A stretch of DNA of 32,000 nucleotides, taken from Halomicronema hongdechloris C2206. GTDB taxonomy: Bacteria; Cyanobacteriota; Cyanobacteriia; Phormidesmidales; Phormidesmidaceae. The translations under genes and the position numbers were made by a program. The notes below the pieces were generated by a model. The model did not search any database, was not told the DNA's origin, and saw nothing but the letters and a program-made list of their open reading frames with translations. The first letter of the stretch is position 1, and each line of letters opens with the position of its first letter. Shown here one piece after another: positions 3,313-29,878 of the stretch. The DNA lies in the NCBI RefSeq assembly GCF_002075285.3, contig NZ_CP021983.2:3510001-3542000 (forward strand), in the 5' to 3' direction.

Positions 3313-4251
3313 CTATGCATCTGCATCCGGCAGAATTAGTAGACTAATCTGCCCTAGTCTGGCCTCTACCTGAGTGTCTACCACCAGGGCACTGAGTTGG
3401 GTTGGCTCGAGAACATCTAGGGTGAGGGTATCGGCATAGCCATTGAGTACCACCCAGGCGATAGTCGTCTCAACGCCGGTTTTGTGCAGGATGAACTGGC
3501 CGCCGTGCAACCACACCAGCACCCAGGGCTCGGGCTCGAATTGGCTATTGCCAAAGCAGCTCACGCCCCCCTTCTCGATACCGATTAAATAGGTGCCCGG
3601 CACCAGGGAGGTGGTAGTGGCTACCTGTTCTAAACTAGATGTTTGCTCGGCATCTAGGCCATAGCTGTGCTGTTGGCTATCGATGGTGAGGTGCTGTTGG
3701 CAGCCTACCCGGAGTGGAGTCCTCGGCAGGGATGGGGCTGGGGGAAAGGAGGCGGGCTCAACCGGAGCGGATATCGCCTCGGGGGCATCAGTGGCATGGG
3801 CGGACTCAGTGACCTCGGTAATCGAGGCCCGTTGATGGAGAGACCGCACCAACCCATGCCACTGGCCCTCGGGGGTGTAGTAGCCTAACTCGGCCACATA
3901 GTCGCGCTCTCCGACAGGAGCGGTGATTCGCAGGGATGAGAGTCCTTCACAGGGATAGTCATAGACCGCGTGGGCGGGTTGTCGATCTAGGTCAATGGCG
4001 GTGGCGTCATAGAGGCGCAGGCCGAGAGGCAGCTTGCGATCGCATAGGGTTGCCCGCACGAGATCGGGCAGGGTCCACTGGGCCAGTAAGACTTGCTGGG
4101 GCTGGGCCACAAGGCTGAGGCTAGCGGCTGAGGCAGCCTGTCGCAACTCGGGGCTGTCGGCCCAAACGGAAGGTTGATCTACCTGGTCGGCCCCGGGCAG
4201 AGATTTCCTCTGGCGCCACGATGGGCTCAGTAGTGTTGTCTGCAACCTCAA
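3313..4251 (-). CDS. hypothetical protein: DUF4912-like unit plus conserved C-terminal beta-rich domain (CTD copy 1)
   Basis: 'LRLYDATAIDLDRQPAH...ERDYVAELGYYTPEGQWHGLVRS' repeats the unit in ORF 4121-4762. The last ~125 aa ('PGTYLIGIEKGG...EPEPWVLVWLHGGQFILHKTGVE...VLNGYADTLTLDVLEPTQL') recur at 6403-6790 and 5952-6350. The listed start lies inside the upstream ORF, so this may be the 3' part of a longer broken gene. Confidence 0.7.
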   Translation of the reverse strand: MRLQTTLLSPSWRQRKSLPGADQVDQPSVWADSPELRQAASAASLSLVAQPQQVLLAQWTLPDLVRATLCDRKLPLGLRLYDATAIDLDRQPAHAVYDYPCEGLSSLRITAPVGERDYVAELGYYTPEGQWHGLVRSLHQRASITEVTESAHATDAPEAISAPVEPASFPPAPSLPRTPLRVGCQQHLTIDSQQHSYGLDAEQTSSLEQVATTTSLVPGTYLIGIEKGGVSCFGNSQFEPEPWVLVWLHGGQFILHKTGVETTIAWVVLNGYADTLTLDVLEPTQLSALVVDTQVEARLGQISLLILPDADA

Positions 4252-4762
4252 GGGCAGACTCGGAGGGAGCCGTCGGAGCGGCTATGCGGGCATGCAGGGA
4301 GCGCCCCAGACGAATCCAGTGGTGCTCGGCATCGGTGCAGCCCAACTCGGCCACATAGTCGCGGTCATAGGCGGCCACCTGAATCGGTAGGGTCCCCGAT
4401 ATCCCGGCAACGGGGATAGTTTGGGTGTGATGGGGAGGCTGATGATCGAGATCGATGGCGGTGGCATCATGCAGCTTTAGCACCAGGGGAACTGCTGCCA
4501 GGCGCGCCGCCGCCTGCGCTGGGTCTGAAAAGGTCCAGGTCACCGCCCAGGCGTCCGTGGCCAGGGGCTGTAGGGCGATCTGAGCCGTTGGCCAGGGGGA
4601 ATCTGGGGATTGGGGTTCCCCTGCCGGGGGCGAATCACCTGCGTCTGCTGGGGCAGCCGCGGCAGCGGCCAGACCGCCGGCCAGGGCTGCCCCCTGAGTA
4701 TCCATCCGCGCTGGGGCAGGGGGAGGCTCCGCTGGAGGACTCTCAGGCGATGGCTCAGCCAC
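4121..4762 (-). CDS. hypothetical protein: Pro/Ala/Glu-rich linker plus DUF4912-like unit
   Basis: 'LVLKLHDATAIDLDHQPPH...YDRDYVAELGCTDAEHHWIRLGRS'. This frame stays open upstream to about 5085 and reads as a P/A/E/T-rich linker, so the GTG at 4762 is probably not the real start. Confidence 0.6.
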   Translation of the reverse strand: MAEPSPESPPAEPPPAPARMDTQGAALAGGLAAAAAAPADAGDSPPAGEPQSPDSPWPTAQIALQPLATDAWAVTWTFSDPAQAAARLAAVPLVLKLHDATAIDLDHQPPHHTQTIPVAGISGTLPIQVAAYDRDYVAELGCTDAEHHWIRLGRSLHARIAAPTAPSESALEVADNTTEPIVAPEEISARGRPGRSTFRLGRQPRVATGCLSR

Positions 4763-4958
4763 TGCCTCTGGGGCAGGGATAGACTCGGTTGCAGTGTCTT
4801 CAGGTGCGGGACTGGTGGATACGGCGGTGGTGAGGGGCAGATCTGCCCCAGCAGCAGTGGATGCTGGAGGAGAGGCTGGGCTGGAGCCAGAAATAGTAGC
4901 ATCTGCATTGACATCTGCATCTGCTTCCGGAGCAGATGTTGCCGCCGAGGTCGGTGTC

Positions 4959-5867
4959 TCAGCCCTGGAGACTCGGCCCCTGGAGACTCGGCCCCTGGAG
5001 ACTCGGCCCTGGAGGGCTGTAGGAGAGCGGTGCCTGAGTTGAGGGGGCGGACCGGCGACTCCGCCACAGCCAGTAGAGCAGCGGCAGGCCTAGCAGTGGC
5101 AACAGTAGCCACCACCACTGCCCAGGGGAAGTATCTGCCGTTGGGGCTTCGGCAGTGGTGCCTGGAGCCGTCGACACCGGATCGTCTGGGCCAGGGCCGG
5201 TGGGTTCAGGGGCAGTCTCTTCGCCGGGGTCTGGGGGCTGGGAGGTCGGGGGCTCCGCCTCTGAGGTGTCGCTGCCGCCCTCACCGGCAGCTGCCTCATC
5301 GGCGGTTGCTAAGCCAGCGTCTCCCGACGCTGGCGTTGACGCTAGGGCCTGGTCGATGGCCTCGCGGTTGAGGGGATCGGTGGCGACGCCGAAGAAGGCC
5401 CGCAGCACCGGATCAGGGTCAGGACCTGCATAGACATAGGCGAGGTTCCCCTGGATGGGATGCGATCGCAACCCCTGCAGCCGCTCTTGGGGCGTCAACG
5501 GCCGCTGCACCGCGGCTAAATCTAGGGTACCAGCGGCGACGGCAGCCAAGGCAGCGTCGGGGGCGAGGGTGACCAGATCTACCGTGGTGCCAGGATATTG
5601 CTGGGTAAAGGCCCTGCCCAACTGCTGATTGAGACTGGCCAGGGTATCGCTGCCACCAATACGTAGGGTGGTACCCTGCAGAGTCTCCCTGGCGGTGGGT
5701 GGTGATTCCCCTGCAGCTGCCTCGGGTTCGGCGGACTCTGGCACCACCAGATAGGTGTTATCGGAGGCCAGGACAACGGTCCTCACCCCCCCAAACGGAA
5801 TGGTAGACAGCGACAGCAATAGTCCAATGGCGACAGGACGTTGCCCTAGCGACCACCCATGTCCCAT
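4959..5867 (-). CDS. secreted/membrane protein with truncated PstS-like (PBP type 2) domain, acidic linker and TM helix
   Basis: N-terminal hydrophobic segment 'RPVAIGLLLSLSTIPFGG'. 'LRIGGSDTLASLNQQL...LDLAAVQRPLTPQE' aligns with paralog 7545-8690. TM 'WWWLLLPLLGLPLLYWLW' is followed by RSRRS. The ORF ends in (GPSLQ)x3 created by a 15-bp repeat. Confidence 0.7.
   Translation of the reverse strand: MGHGWSLGQRPVAIGLLLSLSTIPFGGVRTVVLASDNTYLVVPESAEPEAAAGESPPTARETLQGTTLRIGGSDTLASLNQQLGRAFTQQYPGTTVDLVTLAPDAALAAVAAGTLDLAAVQRPLTPQERLQGLRSHPIQGNLAYVYAGPDPDPVLRAFFGVATDPLNREAIDQALASTPASGDAGLATADEAAAGEGGSDTSEAEPPTSQPPDPGEETAPEPTGPGPDDPVSTAPGTTAEAPTADTSPGQWWWLLLPLLGLPLLYWLWRSRRSAPSTQAPLSYSPPGPSLQGPSLQGPSLQG
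4964..5008. repeat. 15-bp perfect tandem repeat x3 (cctggagactcggcc) inside coding sequence
   Basis: Units at 4964-4978, 4979-4993 and 4994-5008. Depending on frame they read GPSLQ, AESPG or GRVSR on the minus strand. Confidence 0.9.
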
Positions 5868-5951
5868 AGTCCGGTCTCCCTAGCGTGGCATCTCAGCAAA
5901 ACAGTTTGACTCCCATGACAGCCCTACTCGGCTCGGGGGCTGGGACAGCGT

Positions 5952-6350
5952 TTATCGGTCCTTCAGGATGGAGAGCACCCCCTGGCCCTTGCTGGCGTTG
6001 GCCTTGGGCATCGAAGAATAGCCCACATAGGGTAGTGGTTTCCAGCACTTCTAGGGTAAGGGTATCGTCATAGCCATGCAGGGACGACCCAGGTGGCTCC
6101 CACTTCTGATATTGGTCTTCCTATTGATAAACTGGCCGCCGTAGATCCAGAGCAATACCCAGGGGGCTTGCTCCCAGGATTGGGCCTCGGGGCCGTGGCG
6201 CCACCCTCCCTGCTCAATGCGGATGATGTATAGCCCTGGCTCCAGGGGAATGGCATTGGTGCCTGACTGTAGTTGCCCGAGGCGGGCCTCATCTAATACA
6301 TAGCAGTGGGCTCGGCTATCGACGGTTAACCGCACGGGTTCACTCCTCAC
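5952..6350 (-). pseudogene. stand-alone copy of the cluster's C-terminal domain (CTD copy 2), broken by about three frameshifts
   Basis: Similarity to the other CTDs runs through three frames. 'RLTVDSRAHCYVLDEARLGQLQSGTNAIPLEPGLYIIRIEQGG...APWVLLWIYGGQFINRKT' (ORF 6051-6350) is followed by 'EVGATWVV' (ORF 6068-6292 frame). Next comes 'LHGYDDTLTLEVLETTTLCGLFFDAQG', then 'GQGVLSILKDR*' with its stop at 5952-5954. Confidence 0.65.
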
Positions 6351-6402
6351 AAGATGCTGACACGAAAAATCTAGAGCTAACGCCAGAGGTAAATCTCAGA
6401 GG

Positions 6403-7800
6403 TTAGGTCATCTCTAGGATGGAAATATCCACCTGACCGCTATTGTCTTCCCGATAGGTATCTAGGAACAGGGCCCAGAGATGGGTAGGCTCCAGGACTC
6501 GCAGTACCAGGGCATCGCCATAGCCGTTCAAGACTGCCCAGATGCTAGCCACCTCGACCCCGGTTTGCTTATTAATCACACGGCCTCCATGAATCCACAG
6601 CACCACCCAGGGTTCGGGAGCAAATCCCTGGCCGTCGCTCCAATAGCCAAAAGCACCCTGGCTAATCCGGATCATATAATCGCCCGGTGTCAGGGAGGTG
6701 GTGTTGGCGGTGGACTGCAGGCTGGCCAACTGCTGCGTGTCTAAGCCATAGCAATGTGGTGGAGCCTCAATCACCAGGCGACGATAGGTGCATTCCTGAC
6801 AGCTATTGAGCAGGGCGTCTCTGAGTAGGGCGACGGCATCGGTGGGATCAGCACCCAGGGTGCGACTGAGGCCCCCGGTGCTCTGGGCCAGGCGACTCTG
6901 GCTATTCCAGACAGCGGTGTCATCCCGTGGTGTCCAGTCGGTGTGGAGCCTCACCTGGTTTTGGTGGGCCCTAGCGATCAGGGACGCGGTTGCCAAGTCA
7001 GCCTCTCTCAGTCCGTCACTATCGGTAGCCCCCAGGATCCAGATGGCCCGGGTTGCCTCTAGGCGCCAGCCGCCGTGGTCCACCAGGATTTCCAGGATCT
7101 GGGCAGGCTCCTGAGATGGAGCAGTGACATCTCCCTGGGTAGCTAGAAACTCTGCCACGGAACGATCGCAGCGGGTTTGGGGCCAGGGGGCCTCGAGCCC
7201 CAGCCAGACCAGCCGTAGATCCAGGGGCTGTAGCTGAGTCACCTGTGCGATCGCAGCCTCAGCGGCGCTACTCAGGGCAGCAACAACTGGTCCTAAGGCA
7301 GGCTCGTTATCGATCACGATCAGCAAATCCACGCTGGCGGCGGCCACTGAGGTTCGCCCCGGGCCTGGGGGTGATAGTCCCTGGGCTCGCTCATAACTAT
7401 CGCGAGCGGCCACAGTCTCCCCCAGTCGCACCAGGGCATCTCCCCGTCCTTGCCAGGCCTCAATGGCCCGATCATCGGCGGGGATGCCAGGAGTTGCCGC
7501 TGGGGGTGGCTCCTGAACCTGGAAACTCTCTGGGGTTGCTGCGTCTATTGCTGGCCCTGTTTTTGCTTCCCTAGCGACGTCCCTGCCTCCTCTGGCGCTG
7601 GCAGCCCCATCAGTGGCGGCCGTTGGCATGGCTGGATCGGCGGCGGCGGTAGTTGACGTTGCCGCCTCCGGTTCTGCCGCCTCCGGTTCTGCCGCCGTTT
7701 GGCAATCGGCAGACTCCGGAGACGCAGCCGATTTGCCCGCTGGCGCTGGCTGAGCCACCAGCCTAGCCATAGCAGCAGCCCCCCCAGTAGCACCCACCAA
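6403..7800 (-). CDS. hypothetical protein: A/E/P-rich linker, TPR-like helix pair, possible MIDAS-less vWA-like region, CTD copy 3
   Basis: C-terminus 'CYGLDTQQLASLQSTANTTSLTPGDYMIRISQGAFGYW...APEPWVVLWIHGGRVINKQTGVEV...VLNGYGDALVLRVLEPTHL'. Middle region 'VDLLIVIDNEPALG...AIWILGATDSDGL' (vWA-like is inference only). The 5' 256 nt overlap ORF 7545-8690 in another frame, so the true start is unclear. Confidence 0.7.
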   Translation of the reverse strand: MVGATGGAAAMARLVAQPAPAGKSAASPESADCQTAAEPEAAEPEAATSTTAAADPAMPTAATDGAASARGGRDVAREAKTGPAIDAATPESFQVQEPPPAATPGIPADDRAIEAWQGRGDALVRLGETVAARDSYERAQGLSPPGPGRTSVAAASVDLLIVIDNEPALGPVVAALSSAAEAAIAQVTQLQPLDLRLVWLGLEAPWPQTRCDRSVAEFLATQGDVTAPSQEPAQILEILVDHGGWRLEATRAIWILGATDSDGLREADLATASLIARAHQNQVRLHTDWTPRDDTAVWNSQSRLAQSTGGLSRTLGADPTDAVALLRDALLNSCQECTYRRLVIEAPPHCYGLDTQQLASLQSTANTTSLTPGDYMIRISQGAFGYWSDGQGFAPEPWVVLWIHGGRVINKQTGVEVASIWAVLNGYGDALVLRVLEPTHLWALFLDTYREDNSGQVDISILEMT

Positions 7801-8690
7801 AATGGCAATAGTCGGTCGACGGGAGTGGTGGCCGTGCCAACGCCAGGACTGGAGCTGGAGGATCGTTGCCAGGGTCTGGGCTCCAGGGCCGCTGTGATCG
7901 CATCGGCTTCGGCGTCTTTGGCCTGGTTGATAGCCAGTTGTCCAGAGGGATCTTGTACCAGGTCCAGGAAGGCTTGAATCGCCGGATTATCGGCCCGATA
8001 GGCATAGCCCCGCAGCGAGGTGTAGGGATAGATGGCATCGCCGGGCAACGTATCCAGCAGCACGGCAATTTTTACGACCCGCACCTGGGGTTGATGCTGG
8101 ATCTGGGATGCGATCGCATAGCCGATGCCATCGCCACCGAGCCGCCGAATCACCGCCGCCGTATCGGCCACGGTCACATGATGCTCCTGGGAAGCCGGCT
8201 GCCCCTCTAAATCCTGAAACCGAGGATTGTTCAGTAGAGCCTGGCGGGTGTCACTGCCCTGGGGCCGATCGATGACCAAAATATTCCCCGGCTGCCGACC
8301 CAGCTCCGCCCAATCTGTGATCTCTCCCCGCAGAATCTGGGCAAATTGCTCGACGGTCAAACTTCCCATGAAGGGATTACTGCGGCCAACGATGACGGCT
8401 ATGCTGTCCTGGCTAACGGGAATCTGCCGTAGGCCCTTCGCCGTCTCAGCCTCCATCAGGGGGCGACCAATGGCAGCCAAATCAATGTCGCCAGCAATGA
8501 CCTCATCCAGGGCCGTCTCAGTACCCCGAGAATCTAGGGTGACCTCGATCTGGGGATAGCTCTGCTCAAATTGCTGCTTCAGCCAGCGGTTGATCAGCAC
8601 CATGGCATCGGAGCCATCAATCCGCAGCTGATCGCCAGCCACCGCCTTCACCTGCGTCACAGAAGCGGGGGGCGTCTCAGTCGAGTTCAC
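7545..8690 (-). CDS. PstS-like phosphate-binding-protein-fold domain (PBP type 2) plus TM helix
   Basis: 'LRIDGSDAMVLINRWL', 'DLAAIGRPL', 'RPQGSDTRQALL' and 'YPYTSLRGYAYRAD' are typical of PstS-family PBPs (from memory). TM 'FWWVLLGGLLLWLGWWL'. The GTG start at 8690 has no signal peptide. A signal-like peptide sits out of frame at 8710-8808. The Arg-rich tail after the TM looks like an off-frame read of the A/E/P linker. Confidence 0.75.
   Translation of the reverse strand: MNSTETPPASVTQVKAVAGDQLRIDGSDAMVLINRWLKQQFEQSYPQIEVTLDSRGTETALDEVIAGDIDLAAIGRPLMEAETAKGLRQIPVSQDSIAVIVGRSNPFMGSLTVEQFAQILRGEITDWAELGRQPGNILVIDRPQGSDTRQALLNNPRFQDLEGQPASQEHHVTVADTAAVIRRLGGDGIGYAIASQIQHQPQVRVVKIAVLLDTLPGDAIYPYTSLRGYAYRADNPAIQAFLDLVQDPSGQLAINQAKDAEADAITAALEPRPWQRSSSSSPGVGTATTPVDRLLPFWWVLLGGLLLWLGWWLSQRQRANRLRLRSLPIAKRRQNRRRQNRRRQRQLPPPPIQPCQRPPLMGLPAPEEAGTSLGKQKQGQQ
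7661..7696. repeat. 15-bp tandem repeat x2.4 (gccgcctccggttct) inside coding sequence
   Basis: Units at 7661-7675 and 7676-7690, with a partial unit at 7691-7696. They read AAEPE or RRQNR on the minus strand depending on frame. Confidence 0.9.
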
Positions 8691-8933
8691 CGGACTCGCC
8701 TGGGCTAGGCTAGGCCAACTGGAGCCAACCGCCCAATCCGAGGCCGATTCCCCACAGCAGGACTACCACTCGCCGTAGCCATGGCCGGGAGAATCGACAT
8801 GAATCCATCGCGTTTACCTGATAATGCGTTCAGTCAGGGGAAATATCCTCTCAACCCTATCAGGTCGGCGGCCTCTGCCGCCAAGGTGGTGTTCGACACA
8901 GGAGCGAAGGGGAGGGGGGTGATGGGGAGGAAG

Positions 8934-8961
8934 GAAGAGTGAAGAGTGAAGAGTGAAGGGG
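8934..8961. repeat. heptamer array (GAAGAGT)n, STRR-like
   Basis: gaagagt x3 then gaagggg. It is the reverse complement of the array at 9554-9588. Confidence 0.9.
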
Positions 8962-9062
8962 CAAGGAAAACAGGTAGCGTGGGTCGTTTTACTTAAGCGA
9001 GAGAAGTTATGAATGGTCAGGGAAGGACCCACGGGGGAAAGAGAGGGCTGAGGGCGGAGGAA

Positions 9063-9090
9063 AGTGTTGAGTGTTGAGTGTTGAGTGAGT
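9063..9090. repeat. heptamer array (AGTGTTG)n
   Basis: agtgttg x3 then agtgagt. The same unit recurs at 15383-15401. Confidence 0.9.
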
Positions 9091-9183
9091 GAATGGTTTG
9101 GTTCCCTGTCAAACCGGTGGAATGAGCGGAGCGAGTGGCCCGATGCGGATAGAGGGTAAGGGGACAGGGTGGGCGTGGGAAAA

Positions 9184-9252
9184 GGCAGAAAGCAGAGGGC
9201 AGAAGGCAGAAGGCAGAAGGCAGAAGGCAGAAGCAGAAGGCAGAAGGCAGAA
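9184..9252. repeat. heptamer array (GGCAGAA)n, about 10 units
   Basis: ggcagaa agcagag ggcagaa x5, one 6-mer gcagaa, then ggcagaa x2. Confidence 0.95.
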
Positions 9253-9273
9253 ACATACCCCTTGCCTTCCTTG

Positions 9274-9352
9274 CCGATGCGACGCGATCTATCACGGCTC
9301 ACCGATATGCCCTTCCGCAGGTCCAGGGCAGCGGTTTTGCCCTGGTCGTAGG
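9274..9352 (+). repeat. dispersed hairpin repeat, copy 1
   Basis: ccgatgcgacgcgatct...accgatatgcccttccgcaggtccagggca-gcggttt-tgccctggtcgtagg. The 8-bp stem is ccagggca/tgccctgg (9323-9345). It is near-identical to copy 3 at 25745-25866. Confidence 0.85.
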
Positions 9353-9436
9353 AGTCCGAGGGAAGCGAAATTCCCTCGGATGAGCGCTTTGACTGGTGCA
9401 ATTAAGTGTGGTCTTACCGAGGTCTATCATGCCTTG

Positions 9437-9514
9437 CCGATGCAGCGCGATCTTGAACGACCAACCGACAGGCCCTTCCGCAGGTCCAGGGCAGCGGTTT
9501 GCCCTGGTCGTAGG
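9437..9514 (+). repeat. dispersed hairpin repeat, copy 2 (more diverged 5' half)
   Basis: ccgatgcagcgcgatct...ggcccttccgcaggtccagggcagcggtttgccctggtcgtagg. It lies in direct orientation 163 nt after copy 1. Confidence 0.85.
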
Positions 9515-9553
9515 GGTCCGGAGTAAGCAAGCCCCTTCCCTTTTCACCCTCCC

Positions 9554-9588
9554 ACTCTTCACTCTTTACTCTTCACTCTTTACTCTCC
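9554..9588. repeat. heptamer array (ACTCTTC/ACTCTTT)n
   Basis: Five units. It is the reverse complement of 8934-8961, and the same unit occurs at 15539-15573. Confidence 0.9.
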
Positions 9589-9627
9589 CCCGCCCGCCCA
9601 CTTATCCACTGGCCTACTCACCTGGCC

Positions 9628-12783: not shown

Positions 12784-12913
12784 TGCCTTGGTTCAAACGA
12801 AATCACCAATCTGCGCCTGACGTCGACGACAACAATGTTAAAAAATCTGCTCAATCCACGCTGAACTGCCAGATTCATGGCACGATTACAGCCACATATA
12901 GAACTAAATTTTG

Positions 12914-12939
12914 ATACTCCCTAGTTCGGGAGTATTTTT
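12914..12939 (+). promoter_or_regulatory. terminator-like hairpin in the sulfite reductase 5' leader
   Basis: atactccc (12914-12921) / gggagtat (12928-12935) form a perfect 8-bp stem with a 6-nt loop, then tttt. It lies 65 nt upstream of the ATG at 13004. Confidence 0.45.
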
Positions 12940-13003
12940 GTCTGTGCCTGGCCTGCATCACCGGAAACCGCCCAGCCGGCCTGCCCTAGTCCCAAGAGAG
13001 CTT

Positions 13004-15337
13004 ATGTCTACCGAATCATTGACCTGGAAAGACGCCCTGGCCGATCGCATGCCGCCGTCCATGGCCGACGAGATCGACACCTTTGAAAATCAAATGGCCC
13101 TGCGGCGCCAGGGTAAATTAGACGAGAAAGTCTTTGCCGAACTGCGTTTGCGGCGAGGAGCCTATGGTCAGCGCTACGACAATGGCTTCCGCAACGACGG
13201 GGTTACCTCTCAGGAAATTCCCTTTCCCCATAAGGAGTTGACCAAGGGGCCAGATACCAAGTGGGAGGCCCCCGGCATGCAGCGGATTAAGATTCCCTAC
13301 GGCGGCATGACCGCCGAGCAAATGGAAGTGCTGGCCGACATTGCCGAGGAATACTCCGACACCATCCTGCACATCACCACTCGCCAGGACTTTCAATTAC
13401 ACTTCATTGCCCTGGACGATACCCCTGACATGCACCGGCGACTAGCGGCTGTAGGCATCACCACCCGGGAAGCCTGTGGCAACTCCGTGCGCAATGTCAC
13501 CGCCTGTCCCTTGGCCGGCATCTGCCGGGATGAGGTCTTCGACGTCAGCGGCTACGCCAACGAAACCGCCCAATACTTCCTGGGGCACCGGGATGTGCAG
13601 GACTTCGGCCGTAAATTTAAGGTGGCCTTCTCCGGCTGTAAGCAGCATCCTTGTGGTCTCACCTTCATGCATGACTTGGGCCTGATTGCCACCAGCCGGG
13701 AGGTGGACGGGCAAACCCAGTATGGATTCGAGCTGTATGTCGGCGGCGGCCTAGGGGCGGTTCCCCACCTGGCCAAACTATTCGATGAGTTCGTTCCCCC
13801 CGAAGAACTCCTGCCCCTGGCCCAAGCCATTGCCCGGGTCTACGCCCGCCTGGGGGAAAAGAAAAACCGCAACAAGGCCCGGATTAAGTTCCTGGTGGCC
13901 AAGCTGGGCATCGATGAGTTTCGTCGCCTGGTGAAGGAAGAACGGGCCAGTCTGGAAGCGGATCCGGCCTGGACTACCTGGTTGGAAGGAATTGAAGGCT
14001 ATGCGGAATCCGGGTTACCCCAACCCGTCAGCCAAGGGCAGCCAGTGGATCTGGGAGATGCCGCCGCCGAGTATGAGCACTGGCGGGCCACCAATATCTA
14101 TCCCCAGCGCCAGTCGGGATTTGCCGCCGTTACCATTGCTCTGCCCCTGGGGGATATGACCTCCCGGCAGATGCGTGACCTGGCCGATGTCGTGCGCCGC
14201 TTCACCCGCGATACCATCCGGACGACCGTCGAACAGAACCTGCTGTTGCGCTGGATCCACGAGGCGGATCTGCCGGCTCTGTATCTGGCTCTGAAGGCCA
14301 TCAACCTCCACGCGGCCGGAGCCCAATCCATCGTGGATATTACCGCCTGTCCCGGCACCGACACCTGTAAGCTGGGCATTGCCAGTTCTCGCGGCCTCGC
14401 CGCTGAACTGCGTCAGCGGCTGGTGATGAAGGAGGTGCAATACGACGAGGCCCTGCGCAACATTCGCATCAAAGCCAGCGGTTGCTTCAACTCTTGCAGT
14501 CAGCACACCGTGGCTGAGATCGGCTTCTATGGCTCCAGCCGCGTCGTCAGCCGCCATCGCGTGCCCCACTTCCACTTGGTACTGGGGGGCGAATGGGACA
14601 ACAATGCCGCCGAATATGGTCAATCCCTGGGGGTGATTCCCTCCAAGAATATTCCCGATGTGGTGGAATTCTTGCTCGATCTCTACCTGAGGGATCGCCG
14701 CCCCGGCGAAAAATTTCCCGCCTTTGTCAACCGCGTCGGCAAGAAGGCCATCAAGGAGAAGGTACAGCCCTTTGTGGCCGTCCCCGACTATGGCACCGAC
14801 AAGTCGTTTTACACCGACTGGGGCGATGCCCGGGAGTACAGTATCGGCGACATCGGCATCGGTGAGTGTGCCGGGGAAGTCGTGACCTTGACCGACTTCG
14901 GGGTAGCCGTGGCCGAGAGTGCCCACTTCGATGCCACGGTGTTGTTAGAAGAGCGGGATAACCCCGCCAGCGCTCAGGCCTCTGCCAATAAGGCCCTGGA
15001 ATCAATGCTGCTGGCGGCCCAGGCCCTGATTAAATTGCAGAACATTGATATCTCGGATGATCCAGAGACCATCCTCCATGACTTCCGCACCTACTTCTAT
15101 GACACGGAGCTGTTTTTCGATCCCTTTGCCAAGGGTAAATTCGCCAGCTATCTGTTCAATGCTTACGAGCAACGGCAGCAACCAGCCAATCGTGAGCAGG
15201 CTAAGCAGCTGGTAGAAGAGGCGCGCCTATTTATCGAAGCCGCCCACGAATGTTATGCCCGCATGGCCCAGGCTGGCATCAATACCCCAGCCAGCTTTAA
15301 GACGTGGCTGATGGAGCAACAGATGCAGCTGGCGTAG
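13004..15337 (+). CDS. sir: assimilatory sulfite (nitrite/sulfite family) reductase, ferredoxin type, with ~160-aa C-terminal extension
   Basis: Two NIR_SIR half-domains. The siroheme/4Fe-4S cysteine motifs are 'ITACPGTDTCKLGI' and 'IKASGCFNSCSQH'. ATG at 13004 (MSTESLTWKD) is preferred over TTG at 12911. Confidence 0.85.
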   Translation: MSTESLTWKDALADRMPPSMADEIDTFENQMALRRQGKLDEKVFAELRLRRGAYGQRYDNGFRNDGVTSQEIPFPHKELTKGPDTKWEAPGMQRIKIPYGGMTAEQMEVLADIAEEYSDTILHITTRQDFQLHFIALDDTPDMHRRLAAVGITTREACGNSVRNVTACPLAGICRDEVFDVSGYANETAQYFLGHRDVQDFGRKFKVAFSGCKQHPCGLTFMHDLGLIATSREVDGQTQYGFELYVGGGLGAVPHLAKLFDEFVPPEELLPLAQAIARVYARLGEKKNRNKARIKFLVAKLGIDEFRRLVKEERASLEADPAWTTWLEGIEGYAESGLPQPVSQGQPVDLGDAAAEYEHWRATNIYPQRQSGFAAVTIALPLGDMTSRQMRDLADVVRRFTRDTIRTTVEQNLLLRWIHEADLPALYLALKAINLHAAGAQSIVDITACPGTDTCKLGIASSRGLAAELRQRLVMKEVQYDEALRNIRIKASGCFNSCSQHTVAEIGFYGSSRVVSRHRVPHFHLVLGGEWDNNAAEYGQSLGVIPSKNIPDVVEFLLDLYLRDRRPGEKFPAFVNRVGKKAIKEKVQPFVAVPDYGTDKSFYTDWGDAREYSIGDIGIGECAGEVVTLTDFGVAVAESAHFDATVLLEERDNPASAQASANKALESMLLAAQALIKLQNIDISDDPETILHDFRTYFYDTELFFDPFAKGKFASYLFNAYEQRQQPANREQAKQLVEEARLFIEAAHECYARMAQAGINTPASFKTWLMEQQMQLA

Positions 15338-15438: not shown

Positions 15439-15538
15439 ACCCACCTACCTGCCCAACCATCTACCCTTGCCGTCCGCCGCTCTCCCCTAAGCCCTTCGGG
15501 CAGGCTCCGCCTACACCCCACCACCCCATCACCTATCT

Positions 15539-15615
15539 ACTCTTCACTCTTCACTCTTTACTCTTCACTCTCCGCTCTCCGCTCTCCGTTCTCCCTCCTC
15601 CCTCCTCCCTTTCCC
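15539..15615. repeat. drifting heptamer array, 11 units (ACTCTTC -> GCTCTCC -> CTCCTCC)
   Basis: actcttc x2, actcttt, actcttc, actctcc, gctctcc x2, gttctcc, ctcctcc x2, ctttccc. Confidence 0.95.
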
Positions 15616-25690: not shown

Positions 25691-25744
25691 ATAGGGTAGG
25701 GGCGTGGTTGCCACGCCCAATGCAGAAAAGCCCTCGTTACTTCA

Positions 25745-25866
25745 CCGATGCGACGCGATCTATTACTGCTTACCGATATGCCCTTCCGCAGGTCCAGGGC
25801 AGTAGTTCGACTACGTTGCTCCTGCGGAGCCGCTTTGCGAACACTACAAGCGGTTTGCCCTGGTCG
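25745..25866 (+). repeat. dispersed hairpin repeat, copy 3, with ~48-nt insertion in the hairpin loop
   Basis: The flanks match copy 1 almost base for base. An extra 25802-25849 sits between ccagggca and gcggtttgccctgg. The repeat ends 2 nt before the stop codon of the convergent gene at 25869. Confidence 0.85.
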
Positions 25867-25868
25867 GA

Positions 25869-27848
25869 CTAGGGGGCTTGGTCCTGCCATTCTTGCAGCC
25901 GCAGTTGGGCCTGGGCATAGGCTTCAGTGCGGGGTGGGATGCGTTGGGCAATTGCGATCGCACGGTTCAGGTCATAGCGGGCCTCGGTCTCGGCCACCCG
26001 CAGTAGATCCCAACTCCACTGGTTGGCGGCCCCCACTGCCGCAGCCGACTCACTGCTGTCAGCCGGTATCTGTTGGGCCAGATCGATAGCCTCCACCAGG
26101 GCATCTACGGTACCCTGCTGAGCCACCTGATAGGCCCGTTGCAACTGCTGTTGTCCCTGTACTTTGCGACGCCAGGCCTGAATCTCACCCTGAGCTTCAT
26201 CGTAGAGCACCCGGCCGGCCCCGATCCGGGCAGCCACCGTCACCGCCTCCGAGTATCGTCCAGCGTTGGCCAACTGCCGCGCCTGCCGCAATAGGGGCTC
26301 ATCTTCCTGCCGCTGAATTTGGGCAGTCCACTGATCAATTTGATCTTGGGCCTCACGGTAGAGGACTCGCCCCGGCTCAATCCGCCTCGCTTCTTGGATA
26401 GCCGTCCGTAGGGCCTGTAGATCGCCCCCCCGGGCCAGCCCCTTAGCCCGCTCTAAGATCGGCCCATCCTCAATGGTTTCAATCTGCCGCTGCCAGCGGT
26501 CGATTTGGCGCTCAGCCTCAGACCAAGCAGGGCTAGTGCGGGAAATCTGATCGGCCTCTGAGATGGCTGCCCGCAAATCACTGACAGTACCTGGATCAGC
26601 CAAGCGCCGGGCCCACTCCAGCTTAGACAGCCCCTCGATTTGACTCTGCCAGCGCTGCATTAAGCCCTGGGCGCGAGCATAGAGGGGCTGATCCTGACCG
26701 ATACTTTGTAACCGCTGAATCCCGGCTTCTAACCCTGCCACCGTATCTCGCCAGGCCAACTCATAGGCCTGGATAATCACATAGAAGTCGCTAATCTCCG
26801 CCCGCAGACCAGCCTCCCGGGGCACGAGGTTGAGTAGCTGAGTGGCGGTACTGGCATCTTCCCGCTTCAGTGCCGCTTCCGCAGCATCTAGGACCTCCCG
26901 GCCCAATTGCCGCAGCACCCGTTGGGCCTCACGGTGTAGGGGGCTGTCTGGATCGATGGAGGCAACTAATTTGAAGGCTTCCTGGAACCCTTCCAAGGTG
27001 CCGCGCTGGCCCAGACGACGAGCTTGCCCCAGGCGATTTAGGTCTTGGCGGGCCTGGGAAATCAATTGAGTCAGGGCTTCGTACTGGGTGGTTTCCCAGT
27101 AGTCATTACCCACAGAGAGTAGCTGAGTCGCCTTGGCGAAGGCTTCCCGGAAGTTTTTCTGCTCTAGCTCAGCTTGGGCTGCTTCATAGATGGCTTCCGC
27201 CTCTTCCCAAGTCTCCTTCCAGCGGCTAACCCGAGTCCGAACTTGCTGAGCCGCACTAGTGTCCTGGGGGATGCGCTGGGCAATGGCGATGGCCTGATCC
27301 AATTTTCCCTGGTGAAAGGTCTGCTCGGCCAGATCGAGAATTTGCTCGGCCCAGACTTCGATGCGCTCGTTAATCTCGGCTCGCAGGGGATGATCCTGGG
27401 GCAGGCCGTCGATCAGATCAATAGCTGCCAGCAGGCTGTCTACTTCACCCTGGGCGGCATAGGCATCGGCACACTGCAGCCGGGTTGAGGCGGAAGCAGT
27501 CGGCCAAAAAATGGCTCGGCAATTGGGCAGATTAGGGATACGAAACAGGCTGACAGCAGAGACAGCCCCCAAGCCAGCGAAGATAACAACTACCGTTAGA
27601 GCCGAGAGTTGCCAGTGGCGAGCTAGACGCTGCCAGAGAGAAGAGGAGTCGGAGGGAACAGGAGGAGCGGAATGCATTTGGCGATGTAGGCGGGCTATTT
27701 CGTCGCTGCCAGAGGTGTGGAGACGAGGGGCAGATGACGGCACCGTATAGGTTGAGCTGAGTCGCTGAGCCTTCCGAGGGCTGGGCCGCCGATGAGTGTC
27801 ACCGGCAGACCAATGGGCAGAATCACGGCGGTTGGACATAGAGATCAA
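25869..27848 (-). CDS. membrane-anchored helical-repeat protein, hypothetical
   Basis: 659 aa. Single TM 'LSALTVVVIFAGLGAVSAVSLF' after a basic/Ser-rich N-terminus. About eight ~60-70-aa alpha-helical repeats follow, each with a recurring 'A...I..W......E' pattern. Confidence 0.85.
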   Translation of the reverse strand: MISMSNRRDSAHWSAGDTHRRPSPRKAQRLSSTYTVPSSAPRLHTSGSDEIARLHRQMHSAPPVPSDSSSLWQRLARHWQLSALTVVVIFAGLGAVSAVSLFRIPNLPNCRAIFWPTASASTRLQCADAYAAQGEVDSLLAAIDLIDGLPQDHPLRAEINERIEVWAEQILDLAEQTFHQGKLDQAIAIAQRIPQDTSAAQQVRTRVSRWKETWEEAEAIYEAAQAELEQKNFREAFAKATQLLSVGNDYWETTQYEALTQLISQARQDLNRLGQARRLGQRGTLEGFQEAFKLVASIDPDSPLHREAQRVLRQLGREVLDAAEAALKREDASTATQLLNLVPREAGLRAEISDFYVIIQAYELAWRDTVAGLEAGIQRLQSIGQDQPLYARAQGLMQRWQSQIEGLSKLEWARRLADPGTVSDLRAAISEADQISRTSPAWSEAERQIDRWQRQIETIEDGPILERAKGLARGGDLQALRTAIQEARRIEPGRVLYREAQDQIDQWTAQIQRQEDEPLLRQARQLANAGRYSEAVTVAARIGAGRVLYDEAQGEIQAWRRKVQGQQQLQRAYQVAQQGTVDALVEAIDLAQQIPADSSESAAAVGAANQWSWDLLRVAETEARYDLNRAIAIAQRIPPRTEAYAQAQLRLQEWQDQAP

Positions 27849-28805: not shown

Positions 28806-29828
28806 CTAACTATCTAGCGGACTTCGCACTCCCCGTCCACCCCGATTCAGCACATTCAAAGGCATTTCAGACCTGACAATGTTGTCTCGTGCTCTGAAAT
28901 ACGAAATACCTTTGGTATAGATCATGGTGGTTTTCACATCTTTGTGTCCCAACAATTCTTGAATGGTGCGGATGTCGTAGTCGTTTTCCAGCAGGTGAGT
29001 TGCAAAGCTATGGCGAAGGGTATGACAACTGACGCGCTTTTGCACACCAGCTTGCCTGACGGCTCGTTTGATGGCTCGCTGCAATCCACTCTCATGAAGG
29101 TGATGACGATGCACAATGCCACTACGCGGATCTTTGGAAAAGCGCTCTGCCGGAAATACAAACTGCCAAATCCATTCACAGTCCGCGTGAGGATATTTGT
29201 GCTCTAACGCAAAAGGTAGATAAACCGAACCATAGCCCTGCGCCAAGTCTTGTTGATGCAACTGTCAAACGCTTTGCAAATGCTGTTGGAAATCTTCGAT
29301 CAGGCTGGTTGGCAACATGGTGATGCGACTTTCGCCCCCTTTCGCATTTCTCACTGTGATTTGCTGTTGAGAAAAATCCAGGTCTTTGATGCGAAGCCGC
29401 AGTGCTTCATTGAGTCTCAAGCCGCTACCGTAAAGTAATTTGGCCACCAATTGATAGACACCCGAGAGGTTTTGTAGCACTTCTGTGGCCTCTGTCGGAG
29501 TGAGGACAGTCGGTAGATGACGCGATCGCTTAGCTCGCACCGCATTAACATCTATCCCCAAATCCTGCTTCAAAACCTGGCGGTAAAGAAAAACCACCGC
29601 ATTGAGCGCCTGGTTCTGCGTTGAAGCCGAGACCTTACCCACCACTGCTAGATGGGTCAAAAACGCCTCTAACTCAGCTCCTCCCATCTCAGCGGGATGC
29701 CGCTTTTGATGGAACAAGATGTAGCGGCGAATCCAATAAACGTAGGTTTGCTCAGTGCGATAGGAATAGTGCTTTAGTCGGATTTGGTCTCGAACTTGAT
29801 CCAGTAGTTTTCGAGGTTGAGCTTCCAT
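28806..29828 (-). pseudogene. intI: integron integrase (IntI), inactivated
   Basis: '[24 protein letters not shown]', '[12 protein letters not shown]' and '[14 protein letters not shown]' are present. So is the IntI-specific segment '[44 protein letters not shown]', and the tail '[14 protein letters not shown]'. There is an in-frame TGA at 29265-29267 and a 57-nt insertion right after the catalytic-Tyr motif. Confidence 0.85.
28858..28913. repeat. small palindromic insertion inside intI
   Basis: aaaggcatttcag (28858-28870) pairs with ctgaaat[acgaaat]accttt (28894-28913). An inner hairpin gacaa-tg-ttgtc is present. The insertion is in frame, adding '[19 protein letters not shown]' between MIYT and (H->N)VLNRGG. 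Confidence 0.7.
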
Positions 29829-29878
29829 CAGTGGTAGACACAGTACACATGTATCTATCTTCACTCATGTTCAGTGCA

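What the first reader, a model, noticed from the sequence alone, without database searches (positions are those of the whole stretch)
3313..8808. Co-directional paralog cluster: PstS-like sensor domain, TM helix, low-complexity linker and an unrecognised C-terminal domain present three times
Seen: two loci on the minus strand (8808-6403 and 5867-3313) share the same order of parts. These are an N-terminal hydrophobic segment, a 'LRI(D/G)GSD...' PBP domain, a Trp-rich TM helix, basic residues and an A/E/P-rich linker with a 15-bp repeat. A variable middle follows. In one locus it is two 'L(K/R)L(H/Y)DATAIDLD...RDYVAELG' units. In the other it is a TPR-like region plus a possible vWA-like region. 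Both end in a ~125-aa domain with the signature '...PG.Y.I.I..G.......EPWV.LWIHGG..I...TGVE......VLNGY.D.L.L.VLEPT.L'. A third, stand-alone copy of that domain lies between them. Established: PstS-type PBPs bind phosphate or oxyanions in the periplasm. The DATAIDLD/YVAELG unit resembles what I remember of DUF4912. Inference: the topology (periplasmic binding domain, one TM, large cytoplasmic part) looks like a one-polypeptide transmembrane sensor or anchor of unknown output. I cannot name the C-terminal domain.
Basis: partly seen in the sequence, partly recalled or inferred. Interest (0 to 1): 0.7.

Follow-up and report, generated by a model that had tools for sequence, protein, structure and literature searches.

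The report
Interrupted PstS-like membrane protein gene cluster
Three neighbouring genes of the cyanobacterium Halomicronema hongdechloris belong to a real but unstudied family of membrane proteins with a phosphate-binding-like domain outside the cell and an undescribed end domain inside. In this genome record all three are broken by seven single-base slips, so what we see is a damaged or mis-sequenced copy.

Summary
Locus A (8808-6403), the middle copy (6350-5955) and locus B (5867-3313) are split across frames by seven single-base indels, five of them in short G/C runs. Undoing them gives clean ORFs of 801, 131 and 850 aa with no internal stop. The window is from Halomicronema hongdechloris C2206, a 454/early-PacBio/36-bp-Solexa hybrid assembly. 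The other genes I checked in the window are free of frameshifts.

The family is real. In 65 cyanobacterial loci, intact genes encode signal peptide, PstS-like domain, TM helix, disordered linker, 0-8 DUF4912 repeats (or TPR plus a vWA-like domain) and a C-terminal ~125-aa domain (CTD). Nearly all are preceded by a stand-alone CTD gene.

The CTD matches no Pfam or NCBIfam model. A pLDDT-91 model (beta-rich) has no significant PDB or BFVD neighbour.

The periplasmic domain is closest to Synechocystis Sll0540 but has altered phosphate-site residues. No transporter genes, output enzyme or Pho box are present.

The most likely function is a single-pass sensor or tether whose CTD pairs with the free CTD protein. 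This is inferred, not shown.

The parts
8713..8808 (-). Locus A, start codon and signal-peptide-like segment (hydrophobic core 8722-8769). It ends at a TAG in this frame.
   Evidence: Intact homologues begin with a similar signal peptide.
8708..8724 (-). Frame break A1. Removing one T joins the signal peptide to the PBP frame.
7956..8639 (-). Locus A, periplasmic PBP_like_2 (PstS-like) domain, within the deposited ORF 8690-7545 (ASC72384.1).
   Evidence: Pfam E 1.1e-24. Best PDB match is 9L8J Sll0540, E 4e-45. 100% identical to P0163.
7752..7811 (-). Locus A, Trp-rich transmembrane helix LLPFWWVLLGGLLLWLGWWL, followed by SQRQR.
   Evidence: The same motif occurs in homologues.
7728..7748 (-). 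Frame break A2. Adding one G to a GGG run joins the TM segment to the linker frame.
7660..7696 (-). 15-bp tandem repeat (x2.5) encoding AAEPE in the A/E/P-rich linker.
7360..7470 (-). Locus A, single remaining TPR motif. Orthologues carry arrays of TPRs.
   Evidence: Pfam E 0.003-0.04, below cut-off. PDB consensus TPR E 8e-11. TPR arrays in L003, L010 and L012. About 290 aa are missing relative to L003.
6784..7332 (-). Locus A, conserved alpha/beta-type middle domain (vWA-like, no MIDAS motif).
   Evidence: Profile hits to A-type orthologues at E 1e-80 or better, and to DxSxS-bearing relatives at E 1e-35 to 1e-41. Those relatives hit VWA families below threshold. The window copy itself has no VWA hit.
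6403..6786 (-). Locus A, C-terminal domain (CTD, class A) plus stop codon.
5955..6350 (-). Stand-alone CTD gene (class S). It is broken by three one-base insertions, whose contexts lie at 6095-6113, 6073-6091 and 5975-5994.
   Evidence: The intact orthologue P0001 and 55 other stand-alone copies.
5784..5867 (-). Locus B, start codon and N-terminal hydrophobic segment (ORF 5867-4959 = ASC72381.1, XM38_033380).
5454..5684 (-). Locus B, truncated PBP_like_2 remnant (profile positions 6-89 of 267). It is conserved as a remnant in the closest relatives.
5064..5117 (-). Locus B, Trp-rich transmembrane helix WWWLLLPLLGLPLLYWLW, followed by RSRR.
4953..5014 (-). 15-bp tandem repeat (x3.5, 4963-5014) and frame break B1 (one extra G, context 4953-4974).
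4274..4558 (-). Locus B, DUF4912 unit 1.
   Evidence: Pfam E 5.4e-12, 46.5 bits against a cut-off of 29.4. DNA repeat D5.
4182..4201 (-). Frame break B2 (one extra G in a GGGG run).
3838..4110 (-). Locus B, DUF4912 unit 2.
   Evidence: Pfam E 2.5e-10, 41.1 bits against a cut-off of 29.4.
3313..3696 (-). Locus B, C-terminal domain (CTD, class C) plus stop codon.

Best explanation
What it is:
- The region is a three-gene, co-directional cluster (A, small S, B) from Halomicronema hongdechloris C2206. It belongs to an uncharacterised gene family that I found only in cyanobacteria.
- The core of the family is a two-gene unit. The first gene encodes a ~125-140-aa soluble protein that consists only of the CTD. 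The second, a median of 78 nt downstream, encodes a single-pass membrane protein.
- The membrane protein reads: signal peptide, periplasmic PstS-like Venus-flytrap domain, Trp-rich TM helix with basic residues on the inside, long disordered Pro/Ala/Glu-rich linker, 0-8 DUF4912 repeats, C-terminal CTD.
- The Halomicronema / Leptolyngbya PCC 7375 group has an extra upstream paralogue (A). In A the DUF4912 repeats are replaced by TPRs plus a vWA-like domain. In much of this group, including this window, B keeps only a stub of the PBP.

How it most likely works (inferred, not shown):
- The proteins have no enzymatic output.
- The periplasmic domain probably binds a small anion. The altered site makes phosphate itself uncertain.
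- The cytoplasmic CTD probably pairs with the co-encoded free CTD, and in this clade with the second membrane protein's CTD.
- Ligand state outside would then be coupled to assembly or release of a cytoplasmic CTD complex. That is a sensor or tether acting by protein-protein association.

State in this record:
- All three genes are interrupted by seven single-base indels. Six are an extra base and one is a missing base. Five lie in G/C runs of 3-4.
- I judge it slightly more likely that these are local errors of the 454/PacBio-RS/36-bp-Solexa hybrid assembly than true mutations. The alternative, very recent inactivation of the whole operon, is nearly as likely.
For: Family and architecture:
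- 65 loci, all cyanobacterial, contain the CTD.
- 47 pairs of 'stand-alone CTD gene followed by a large CTD gene' have a median gap of 78 nt, and 41 of them have gaps of 150 nt or less.
- About 45 large proteins have PBP, TM, 0-8 DUF4912 repeats and CTD in a single ORF.
- An exhaustive HMMER search found only 175 representative proteins in 1.84 billion. They fall into C-terminal (77), stand-alone (36) and tandem (26) classes.
- Among 51 long members, DUF4912 occurs in 26, PBP_like_2 in 23 and TPR in 8.

Synteny of the three genes A-S-B:
- The arrangement is intact in L003, L004, L010, L012 and L016, and on the metagenome contig L001.

Pairing idea:
- CTD classes S, C, A, T1 and T2 are separate orthologous groups. 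Identity is 53-62% within a class and 38-47% between classes. They are kept as S+C pairs, or fused as T1-T2.
- Where B has lost most of its PBP, an A paralogue with a full PBP is present.

Cytoplasmic location of the CTD:
- Basic residues follow the TM helix.
- Tandem-CTD proteins start directly with the domain and have no signal peptide.

The CTD is undescribed:
- No Pfam or NCBIfam hit.
- It is unrelated to DUF4912 by profile-profile comparison.
- The AF2 model has pLDDT 91. The best Foldseek E-value is 1e-2 with TM 0.43 or less in PDB, and there is nothing significant in BFVD.

The indels:
- Seven one-base edits restore ORFs of 801, 131 and 850 aa with no stop codon and with conserved motifs intact in every frame segment.
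- The genome was assembled from 17x 454, 14x PacBio RS and 36-bp Solexa reads, and contigs were bridged by PacBio and Sanger sequencing.
- The cluster is GC-rich (62% against 57% for the rest of the window).
- The orthologous A gene of Adonisia turfae is cut by a scaffold gap, so this locus is hard to assemble elsewhere too.
Against: Function:
- No experiment and no informative conserved neighbour bears on function.
- The ligand is unknown. The phosphate-site residues differ from both PstS types.
- No Pho-box pair is present in the window.
- CTD-CTD pairing is inferred from gene order and domain classes only. No complex model or covariation test was possible.
- A structural-tether reading fits the long linkers and the variable repeat number equally well.

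Indels as artefacts:
- Thirteen flanking genes, covering about 20 kb, show no frameshift and carry full-length Pfam matches.
- That is despite 875 G/C runs of 3 or more outside the cluster against 236 inside it. The errors would therefore have to be confined to a ~4.6-kb patch.
- A functionally linked operon that decays together would give the same local pattern.
- One of the seven sites (6095-6113) is not in a homopolymer.
- No independent sequence of this strain was available.
Confidence: 0.5

Rival explanations
1. The indels are real. The A-S-B operon of H. hongdechloris C2206 was inactivated recently, in nature or during years of slow laboratory culture. After the first hit, all three functionally linked genes drifted and picked up slippage mutations in short G/C runs. 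Under this reading the region is a young pseudogene cluster.
For: - Seven frame breaks lie in 5.5 kb, against none in about 20 kb of checked flanking genes. Such a local pattern is expected if linked genes lose selection together.
- The window contains another truly broken gene, an integrase with an in-frame stop.
- Locus A has already lost about 290 aa of linker and TPRs relative to its orthologues.
- The assembly averaged 72x coverage and was manually curated.
Against: - Apart from the seven indels there is no nonsense codon anywhere in the 1,782 restored codons, and family-invariant residues are kept in all copies.
- Six of the seven changes are insertions. This does not fit the deletion bias generally reported for bacterial pseudogenes (my own background knowledge, not tested here).
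- 454 and early PacBio reads are prone to exactly this kind of error (plus general knowledge of those platforms).
Confidence: 0.42
2. The proteins are structural tethers rather than sensors. The PBP fold anchors the protein in the periplasm. The disordered linker plus a variable number of beta-rich DUF4912 repeats act as a spacer. The CTD docks onto a cytoplasmic structure, for example the coiled-coil proteins that carry tandem CTDs.
For: - The repeat number varies from 0 to 8, and the linkers are 100-200 aa of low-complexity sequence.
- Tandem-CTD proteins continue into long helical-repeat regions.
- In Iningainema (L039) a tandem-CTD protein, a stand-alone CTD and a PBP-type protein are adjacent.
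- B-type proteins with only a PBP stub are conserved intact in four relatives.
Against: - At least one complete PBP domain is kept in every complete cluster. This suggests the binding fold matters.
- No cytoplasmic partner structure has been identified.
- Most tandem-CTD genes lie in other loci.
Confidence: 0.3
3. They are ordinary membrane-anchored substrate-binding proteins of a phosphate ABC importer, as the deposited name 'putative ABC transporter protein' implies.
For: - PBP_like_2 scores well above the Pfam cut-off.
- The closest solved structure, Sll0540, binds phosphate weakly.
- Many relatives of ~310 aa are plain anchored PBPs.
Against: - No pstC, pstA or pstB genes lie in the window or are conserved in the 65 loci.
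- The score against TIGR02136 is 84 bits against a cut-off of 206.6.
- A transporter role does not explain 450-1,200 aa of conserved cytoplasmic sequence or the partner CTD gene.
- The key Ser/Asp position is Gly, and SGT is replaced by SDT.
Confidence: 0.07
4. The CTD and the vWA-like domain are modules of a conflict or immunity type system of multicellular cyanobacteria, and the A-S-B cluster is a membrane-bound branch of such a system.
For: - In tandem-CTD loci of several genera the neighbours include an AAA_35 NTPase, pentapeptide and TPR proteins, and a vWA-like domain fused to an EEP nuclease/phosphatase. A ~60-aa motif is shared between co-encoded proteins.
- This mix-and-match logic resembles the systems described in PMC7159879. 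That paper also notes TM plus PBP domains in a variable position of one of its systems.
Against: - The PBP-type S+C pairs, which are the majority of the family, show no such conserved neighbours.
- No effector domain is present in the window cluster.
- Text searches of that paper for PstS, DUF4394, AAA_35 and jelly-roll found nothing, and the single 'periplasmic-binding' passage concerns a different system. I therefore found no sign that it describes this domain.
Confidence: 0.12
5. The split is natural. Each locus encodes a short PBP-TM protein plus a separate cytoplasmic protein, or the full-length form is made by programmed frameshifting or by phase-variable slippage in G runs.
For: - Both A and B change frame shortly after the TM helix, in the repeat-containing linker.
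- Short PBP-TM-only relatives exist (P0181).
Against: - The other five breaks lie inside or between conserved domains. Three fall within 140 nt of the small gene, where a split makes no sense.
- All 45 or so homologues are single ORFs.
- The seven sites share no slippery motif or stimulatory element.
- The runs are only 2-4 bases long.
Confidence: 0.04

Closest known systems
Sll0540 of Synechocystis sp. PCC 6803 (PDB 9L8J), an S-type PstS-family phosphate-binding protein of unknown role
   Same: - It is the best solved relative of the periplasmic domain of locus A: E 4e-45, about 40% identity over the whole ~240-aa domain.
- It is also membrane-anchored.
- It is not encoded next to pst transporter genes, responds little to phosphate limitation, and its function is unknown.
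   Different: - Sll0540 is 307 aa: an N-terminal anchor plus the PBP only. It has no C-terminal TM helix, linker, DUF4912 repeat or CTD.
- It has Ser before the conserved Arg and an SGT loop. The window clade has Gly and SDT.
Periplasmic Venus-flytrap (PBP-fold) sensor domains fused through a TM helix to cytoplasmic signalling modules, such as BvgS-type sensor kinases (from my own knowledge)
   Same: The layout is the same: a PBP-fold domain outside, one membrane pass, and a large cytoplasmic part in one polypeptide.
   Different: No kinase, cyclase, HAMP, PAS or DNA-binding output domain is present in any of 51 members scanned. The cytoplasmic part consists of repeats (DUF4912 or TPR) and an undescribed beta-rich domain.
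DUF4912 (PF16258) proteins
   Same: Locus B carries two units above the Pfam cut-off. Relatives carry up to eight.
   Different: - The family itself has no known function. Only two papers in the searched library mention it, both in passing.
- The CTD is not a divergent DUF4912: hhalign probability is 0.1%.
Modular NTP-dependent conflict systems of multicellular bacteria (Kaur et al. 2020, PMC7159879)
   Same: Small shared modules occur both free and at protein termini within one locus. vWA, TPR and pentapeptide components occur, in the tandem-CTD loci only.
   Different: The window cluster and most S+C pairs have no NTPase or effector neighbour. This is a thematic resemblance only.

Membership tests
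PBP_like_2 / PstS-like periplasmic binding fold (PF12849) | Match to the Pfam model above the gathering score over most of the domain. | tested here: met
   Locus A scores 88.1 bits against a cut-off of 27, over profile positions 8-263 of 267. Locus B scores 34.7 bits but covers only positions 6-89 of 267, so it is a fragment of the fold.
PstS family phosphate ABC transporter substrate-binding protein (TIGR02136 / TIGR00975) | Score at or above the NCBIfam curated cut-off. | tested here: not met
   84.2 bits against 206.6 for TIGR02136, and 24.9 bits against 205 for TIGR00975.
PstS family phosphate ABC transporter substrate-binding protein | Discriminator residue Asp (D-type) or Ser/Thr (S-type) before the conserved Arg, and the S-G-T anion loop. 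| tested here: not met
   - The window has AIG-R-PL and R-PQG-SDT.
- Sll0540 has ASS-R-PL and SGT. C. perfringens PBP-1 has MAS-R-DL.
- The Gly and SDT pattern is shared by the whole fused clade.
[quoted passage not shown]
- The consequence for ligand binding is unknown.
PstS family phosphate ABC transporter substrate-binding protein | Genomic association with pstC, pstA and pstB, or Pho regulation. | tested here: not met
   No ABC transporter genes lie in the window or are conserved in 65 related loci. No Pho-box pair is present.
DUF4912 (PF16258) | Match above the Pfam gathering score. | tested here: met
   46.5 and 41.1 bits against a cut-off of 29.4.
TPR repeat proteins | TPR motif matches above threshold. 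| tested here: inconclusive
   - In the window the best Pfam hit is 18.4 bits against 23.5.
- One motif matches consensus TPR proteins in PDB at E 8e-11.
- Orthologues have strong TPR arrays.
von Willebrand factor A (vWA) domain | Significant match to a VWA model and a MIDAS motif (DxSxS). | tested here: inconclusive
   - The window copy has no hit and reads IDNEPA in place of DxSxS.
- A PDB profile search found nothing below E 0.08.
- The domain is clearly homologous (E 1e-35 to 1e-41) to domains with VIVIDTSPSM. Those domains hit VWA_4, VWA_2, VWA, VWA_3 and Integrin_beta, all below cut-off, with a best E of 1e-4.
Cyclic-nucleotide-binding / cupin-like jelly-roll folds (top Foldseek hits for the CTD) | Significant structural superposition. 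| tested here: not met
   The best E-value is 9.6e-3. The cyclic-nucleotide-binding hits have TM-scores of 0.34-0.36, and the highest TM-score of any hit is 0.43.
Sensor kinases and other transmembrane signal transducers with a defined output | A recognised cytoplasmic output domain. | tested here: not met
   None was found in the window proteins, in eight intact orthologues, or in 51 family members.
The CTD family defined here (no curated name) | Match to the profile built from CTD copies, and position at a C-terminus, stand-alone or in tandem. | tested here: met
   Window copies score 209 and 192 bits. The broken middle copy scores 123 and 45 bits in two pieces.

The most novel reading that the evidence does not exclude
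The CTD is a previously undescribed hetero-oligomerisation domain, found so far only in cyanobacteria. Together with the free CTD protein it forms the output of an enzyme-free transmembrane signalling or tethering device. A periplasmic PstS-derived domain with a re-wired anion site (Gly and SDT instead of Asp/Ser and SGT) would control, through a single TM helix and a long disordered linker, the assembly of cytoplasmic CTD complexes. These complexes would also recruit vWA-like and coiled-coil CTD proteins.
Probability: 0.2. Interest if true: 0.7.

Novelty: new variant of a known kind. Interest (0 to 1): 0.42.

Why it matters
- If the family works as proposed, it would be a way to pass information or anchorage across the cyanobacterial inner membrane without any enzyme domain. 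It would use a new beta-rich pairing module and a PstS fold that has been diverted from transport.
- It gives a concrete context for DUF4912 and for the so far unexplained Sll0540-type binding proteins.
- It defines a domain that could be curated: about 175 representative proteins, found so far only in cyanobacteria.
- There is a practical point for this genome. Three genes of CP021983 are probably mis-annotated as fragments. Seven exact positions can be checked by PCR.

Tried and rejected
- **CTD as a known family.** Pfam, NCBIfam, PDB sequence search, and Foldseek against PDB and BFVD with a pLDDT-91 model gave nothing significant. Profile-profile comparison with DUF4912 was negative.
- **Word-indexed protein searches.** A search with one CTD found only one relative. 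A 20-sequence profile found only 15. The exhaustive HMMER search and the genome scan were needed to see the family.
- **Conserved neighbours as a functional clue.** Only lineage-level synteny appeared: a C39 ABC exporter in 16 loci, an actin-like ALP_N protein in 9, plus SbcC, FtsH and GlgC. I rejected these as evidence.
- **vWA for the window's middle domain.** Single-sequence and profile searches were negative. It is only weakly rescued through relatives.
- **Independent sequence of the strain.** Exact look-ups of window proteins in the contig collection failed. A pattern spanning two frameshift sites found nothing in metagenomes. A second metagenome scan returned only a TPR match.
- **Proteome evidence for the locus.** The supplementary table of PMC6416890 is truncated before XM38_0333xx.
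- **Other checks.** No literature on DUF4912 function. No Pho box. No Rfam family or tRNA in the window.
- **Stand-alone CTD = first tandem CTD, C-terminal CTD = second.** Rejected. All five classes are distinct.

Full report
**1. What is in the sequence**

On the minus strand between 8808 and 3313 the mechanical ORF list does not show two long genes. It shows six shorter ORFs: 8690-7545 (381 aa), 7800-6403 (465 aa), 6350-6051 (99 aa), 5867-4959 (302 aa), 4762-4121 (213 aa) and 4251-3313 (312 aa). Several of them overlap in different frames.

- Locus A: signal-peptide-like start 8808-8713; PBP plus TM helix 8762-7548; linker, TPR, middle domain and CTD 7986-6406.
- Locus B: 5879-4962, 5089-4124 and 4281-3316.
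- Middle copy: four pieces.

Pfam confirms the following:
- PBP_like_2 in A (E 1e-24).
- The first third of that domain in B (E 2e-8).
- Two DUF4912 units in B, both above the cut-off.
- Weak TPR in A.
- Nothing for the C-terminal domain (CTD).

The three CTD copies are clearly related. Identity is 50% (E 3e-42) and 46% (E 1e-36). They are also visible at the DNA level. The 15-bp repeats are real.

**2. The frame breaks**

| Site | Context (window coordinates) | Edit that restores the frame |
|---|---|---|
| A1 | 8708-8724 | remove T |
| A2 | 7728-7748 | add G to a GGG run |
| mid1 | 6095-6113 | remove A |
| mid2 | 6073-6091 | remove C from a CCC run |
| mid3 | 5975-5994 | remove G from a GGG run |
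| B1 | 4953-4974 | remove G from a GGG run, at the end of the 15-bp repeat |
| B2 | 4182-4201 | remove G from a GGGG run |

- There is no other stop codon in the restored frames.
- Conserved motifs are intact in each frame segment.
- Six of the seven changes are an extra base in the deposited sequence.

**3. Where the window comes from**

The 381-aa ORF is 100% identical to ASC72384.1 / WP_088430368.1 of Halomicronema hongdechloris C2206. The 302-aa ORF is ASC72381.1 (XM38_033380).

That genome was assembled with MIRA from 17x 454, 14x PacBio RS and 41.5x 36-bp Solexa reads. Contigs were joined using PacBio reads and Sanger-sequenced PCR products (PMC6416890).

All flanking genes I checked show no frameshift and carry full-length Pfam matches: thrS (cut only by the window edge), thrB, gnd, an ECF sigma factor, an LTXXQ protein, sir, an ARC6/Ftn2-like gene, pdhA, pdhB, secD, secF and an amine-oxidase-like gene. 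The breaks are therefore local: seven in 5.5 kb against none in about 20 kb.

The breaks are not explained by homopolymer density alone. There are 236 G/C runs of 3 or more inside the cluster and 875 outside it.

Two readings fit:
- **A low-quality patch of the assembly.** The cluster is GC-rich (62%). The error type is typical of 454 and PacBio reads. No other decay is visible. The orthologous A gene of Adonisia turfae is cut by a scaffold gap.
- **A very recent loss of the whole operon.**

I put these at roughly 50:42 and could not decide between them. No independent sequence of the strain exists in the collections available to me.

**4. The family**

A word-indexed search with one CTD found a single relative. 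This was P0001, a 125-aa stand-alone protein on a 2-kb metagenome contig. That contig repeats the local synteny: a gene ending in TPR plus CTD, then the small CTD gene, then a gene starting with a hydrophobic segment and a PBP stub.

A scan of one genome per species found 65 loci, all cyanobacterial and mostly filamentous: Leptolyngbyaceae, Nodosilinea, Leptothoe, Spirulina, Oscillatoria, Coleofasciculus, Scytonema, Iningainema and Rhizonema. A stand-alone copy also occurs in the unicellular Gloeothece. The exhaustive HMMER search found 175 representative proteins in 1.84 billion.

Within the loci the recurrent unit is a stand-alone CTD gene followed by a large gene that ends in a CTD. There are 47 such pairs, with a median gap of 78 nt.

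About 45 of these large proteins have, in one ORF, an N-terminal hydrophobic segment, a complete ~240-aa PBP, a TM helix at residues ~330-410, 0-8 DUF4912 repeats and the CTD.

The closest relatives have the same A-S-B triple as the window, with intact A genes of 1,124-1,190 aa and B genes of 901-1,586 aa. They are Leptolyngbya PCC 7375, Adonisia, Leptothoe and several MAGs. The window's A lacks about 290 aa of linker and TPRs relative to them.

In several of these relatives, as in the window, B keeps only a PBP stub while A keeps the full domain. Where there is only one large gene, its PBP is complete.

A third class has two CTDs in tandem, no PBP, no TM helix and no signal peptide. It is often followed by long helical repeats.

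The CTD classes (stand-alone S, C-terminal C, A-type A, tandem T1 and T2) are separate orthologous groups.

**5. The individual domains**

*CTD.*
- No Pfam or NCBIfam model matches.
- It is not related to DUF4912.
- With a 17-sequence alignment AlphaFold2 gives pLDDT 91 and pTM 0.82. The model has one helix followed by seven strands.
- Foldseek finds no significant neighbour in PDB (best E 1e-2, TM 0.43 or less; cNMP-binding and other jelly-roll folds) or in BFVD.

*PBP.*
- The best solved relative is Sll0540 of Synechocystis (9L8J, E 4e-45).
- The literature describes Sll0540 as an S-type PstS with low phosphate affinity, little response to phosphate limitation and unknown function (PMC13614923).
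- Sll0540 itself is only 307 aa: an anchor plus the PBP.
- The fused clade has Gly where D-type and S-type proteins have Asp or Ser, and SDT instead of SGT.
- It scores far below the NCBIfam PstS cut-offs. Phosphate binding is therefore not assured.
- The same PBP clade is also fused to WD40 repeats (without a TM helix) or, after the same Trp-rich TM helix, to DUF2382.

*Middle domain of A (6784-7332).*
- It is conserved in A-type orthologues.
- It is homologous (E 1e-35 to 1e-41) to N-terminal domains in tandem-CTD loci that carry VIVIDTSPSM, a DxSxS motif.
- Those domains hit five vWA Pfam families, all below threshold.
- The window copy has lost the motif and gives no vWA hit.
- 'vWA-like' is thus plausible but unproven.

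**6. How it probably works**

Shown:
- The architecture.
- The conserved S+large gene pair.
- The lack of any output enzyme.
- The lack of transporter genes nearby.
- The absence of a Pho-box pair.

Inferred:
- The PBP lies outside and the rest inside. This follows from the signal peptide and the basic residues after the TM helix, and from signal-less CTD proteins.
- CTDs act in pairs or small hetero-oligomers. Distinct classes are always co-encoded or fused. B can lose its PBP when A is present.
- The device couples a periplasmic ligand state, or simply membrane anchorage, to a cytoplasmic CTD complex.

A pure tether model is a serious rival, given the variable repeat number and the long disordered linkers. 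A role as a plain ABC-transporter binding protein is unlikely.

In tandem-CTD loci the neighbours hint at conflict-system-like modularity. They include an AAA_35 NTPase, pentapeptide and TPR proteins, a vWA-like domain fused to an EEP domain, and a shared ~60-aa motif. This does not extend to the PBP-type pairs.

**7. Verdict**

The parts and their order are right. The ORFs are not continuous in this record.
- The family is real and uncharacterised, I found it only in cyanobacteria, and it contains an uncurated domain.
- It is best filed as a new variant of membrane-anchored or sensor-type PBP proteins, not as something categorically new.
- Interest is moderate. It is lowered by the broken state here and by the absence of any functional handle.

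Noticed in passing
window 8909-9602; also 15510-15580 and 25740-25808: The 820-nt spacer between locus A and gnd is full of heptamer tandem arrays: GAAGAGT, AGTGTTG, AAGGCAG x10 and CACTCTT. They form inverted arms (8913-8958 and 9557-9602). A 69-nt dispersed repeat occurs at 9269-9337, 9432-9500 and 25740-25808 with 86-87% identity. This looks like cyanobacterial short tandem repeats or a small non-autonomous element. There is no Rfam match.
   Followed up: partly
window 28806-29864 (minus strand): A tyrosine integrase is split by an in-frame stop codon into 29864-29265 (SAM-like domain plus catalytic positions 3-83) and 29261-28806 (catalytic positions 97-167). It is probably a true pseudogene.
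   Followed up: partly
L035 6986-7255, L035 8828-10738 (C-terminus), L063 8492-9397, L049 6221-8158, L025 1128-1445: In loci with tandem-CTD proteins, a ~60-aa motif (SFDSFGRxPAxDIVCVTPVRTVVRREEEIxxIRKVRKVEEVDASPxCPxNT) occurs as a small stand-alone ORF. It also occurs at the C-termini of several different co-encoded proteins, like an adaptor module.
   Followed up: partly
L035 12294-13943, L039 8120-12910, L063 8492-9397, L049 6221-8158: Relatives of the window's middle domain keep a DxSxS motif. They are fused to an EEP nuclease/phosphatase domain, a DUF4394-like propeller or tandem CTDs. AAA_35 NTPase, pentapeptide, TPR and thioredoxin genes are recurrent neighbours in the tandem-CTD loci.
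   Followed up: partly
L002 8998-9007 (Adonisia turfae CCMR0081): The orthologous A-type gene is interrupted by a 10-N scaffold gap in its TPR region. This locus is therefore hard to assemble in another genome as well.
   Followed up: yes
window 12911-15337: The ORF containing the ferredoxin-type sulfite/nitrite reductase domains is 808 aa when counted from the first possible start (TTG). The Pfam domains cover only part of it, so it has unassigned sequence, including a long C-terminal stretch.
   Followed up: no
window 25869-27848 (minus strand): A 659-aa protein with one predicted membrane segment and long helical, Gln/Arg/Ala-rich repeats has no Pfam match.
   Followed up: no
P0171, P0186, P0216 (relatives of the PBP domain): The same PBP clade (Gly and SDT signature) is fused directly to WD40 repeats without a TM helix. 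After the same Trp-rich TM helix it is fused to DUF2382. This suggests a wider set of PBP-headed proteins in cyanobacteria.
   Followed up: no
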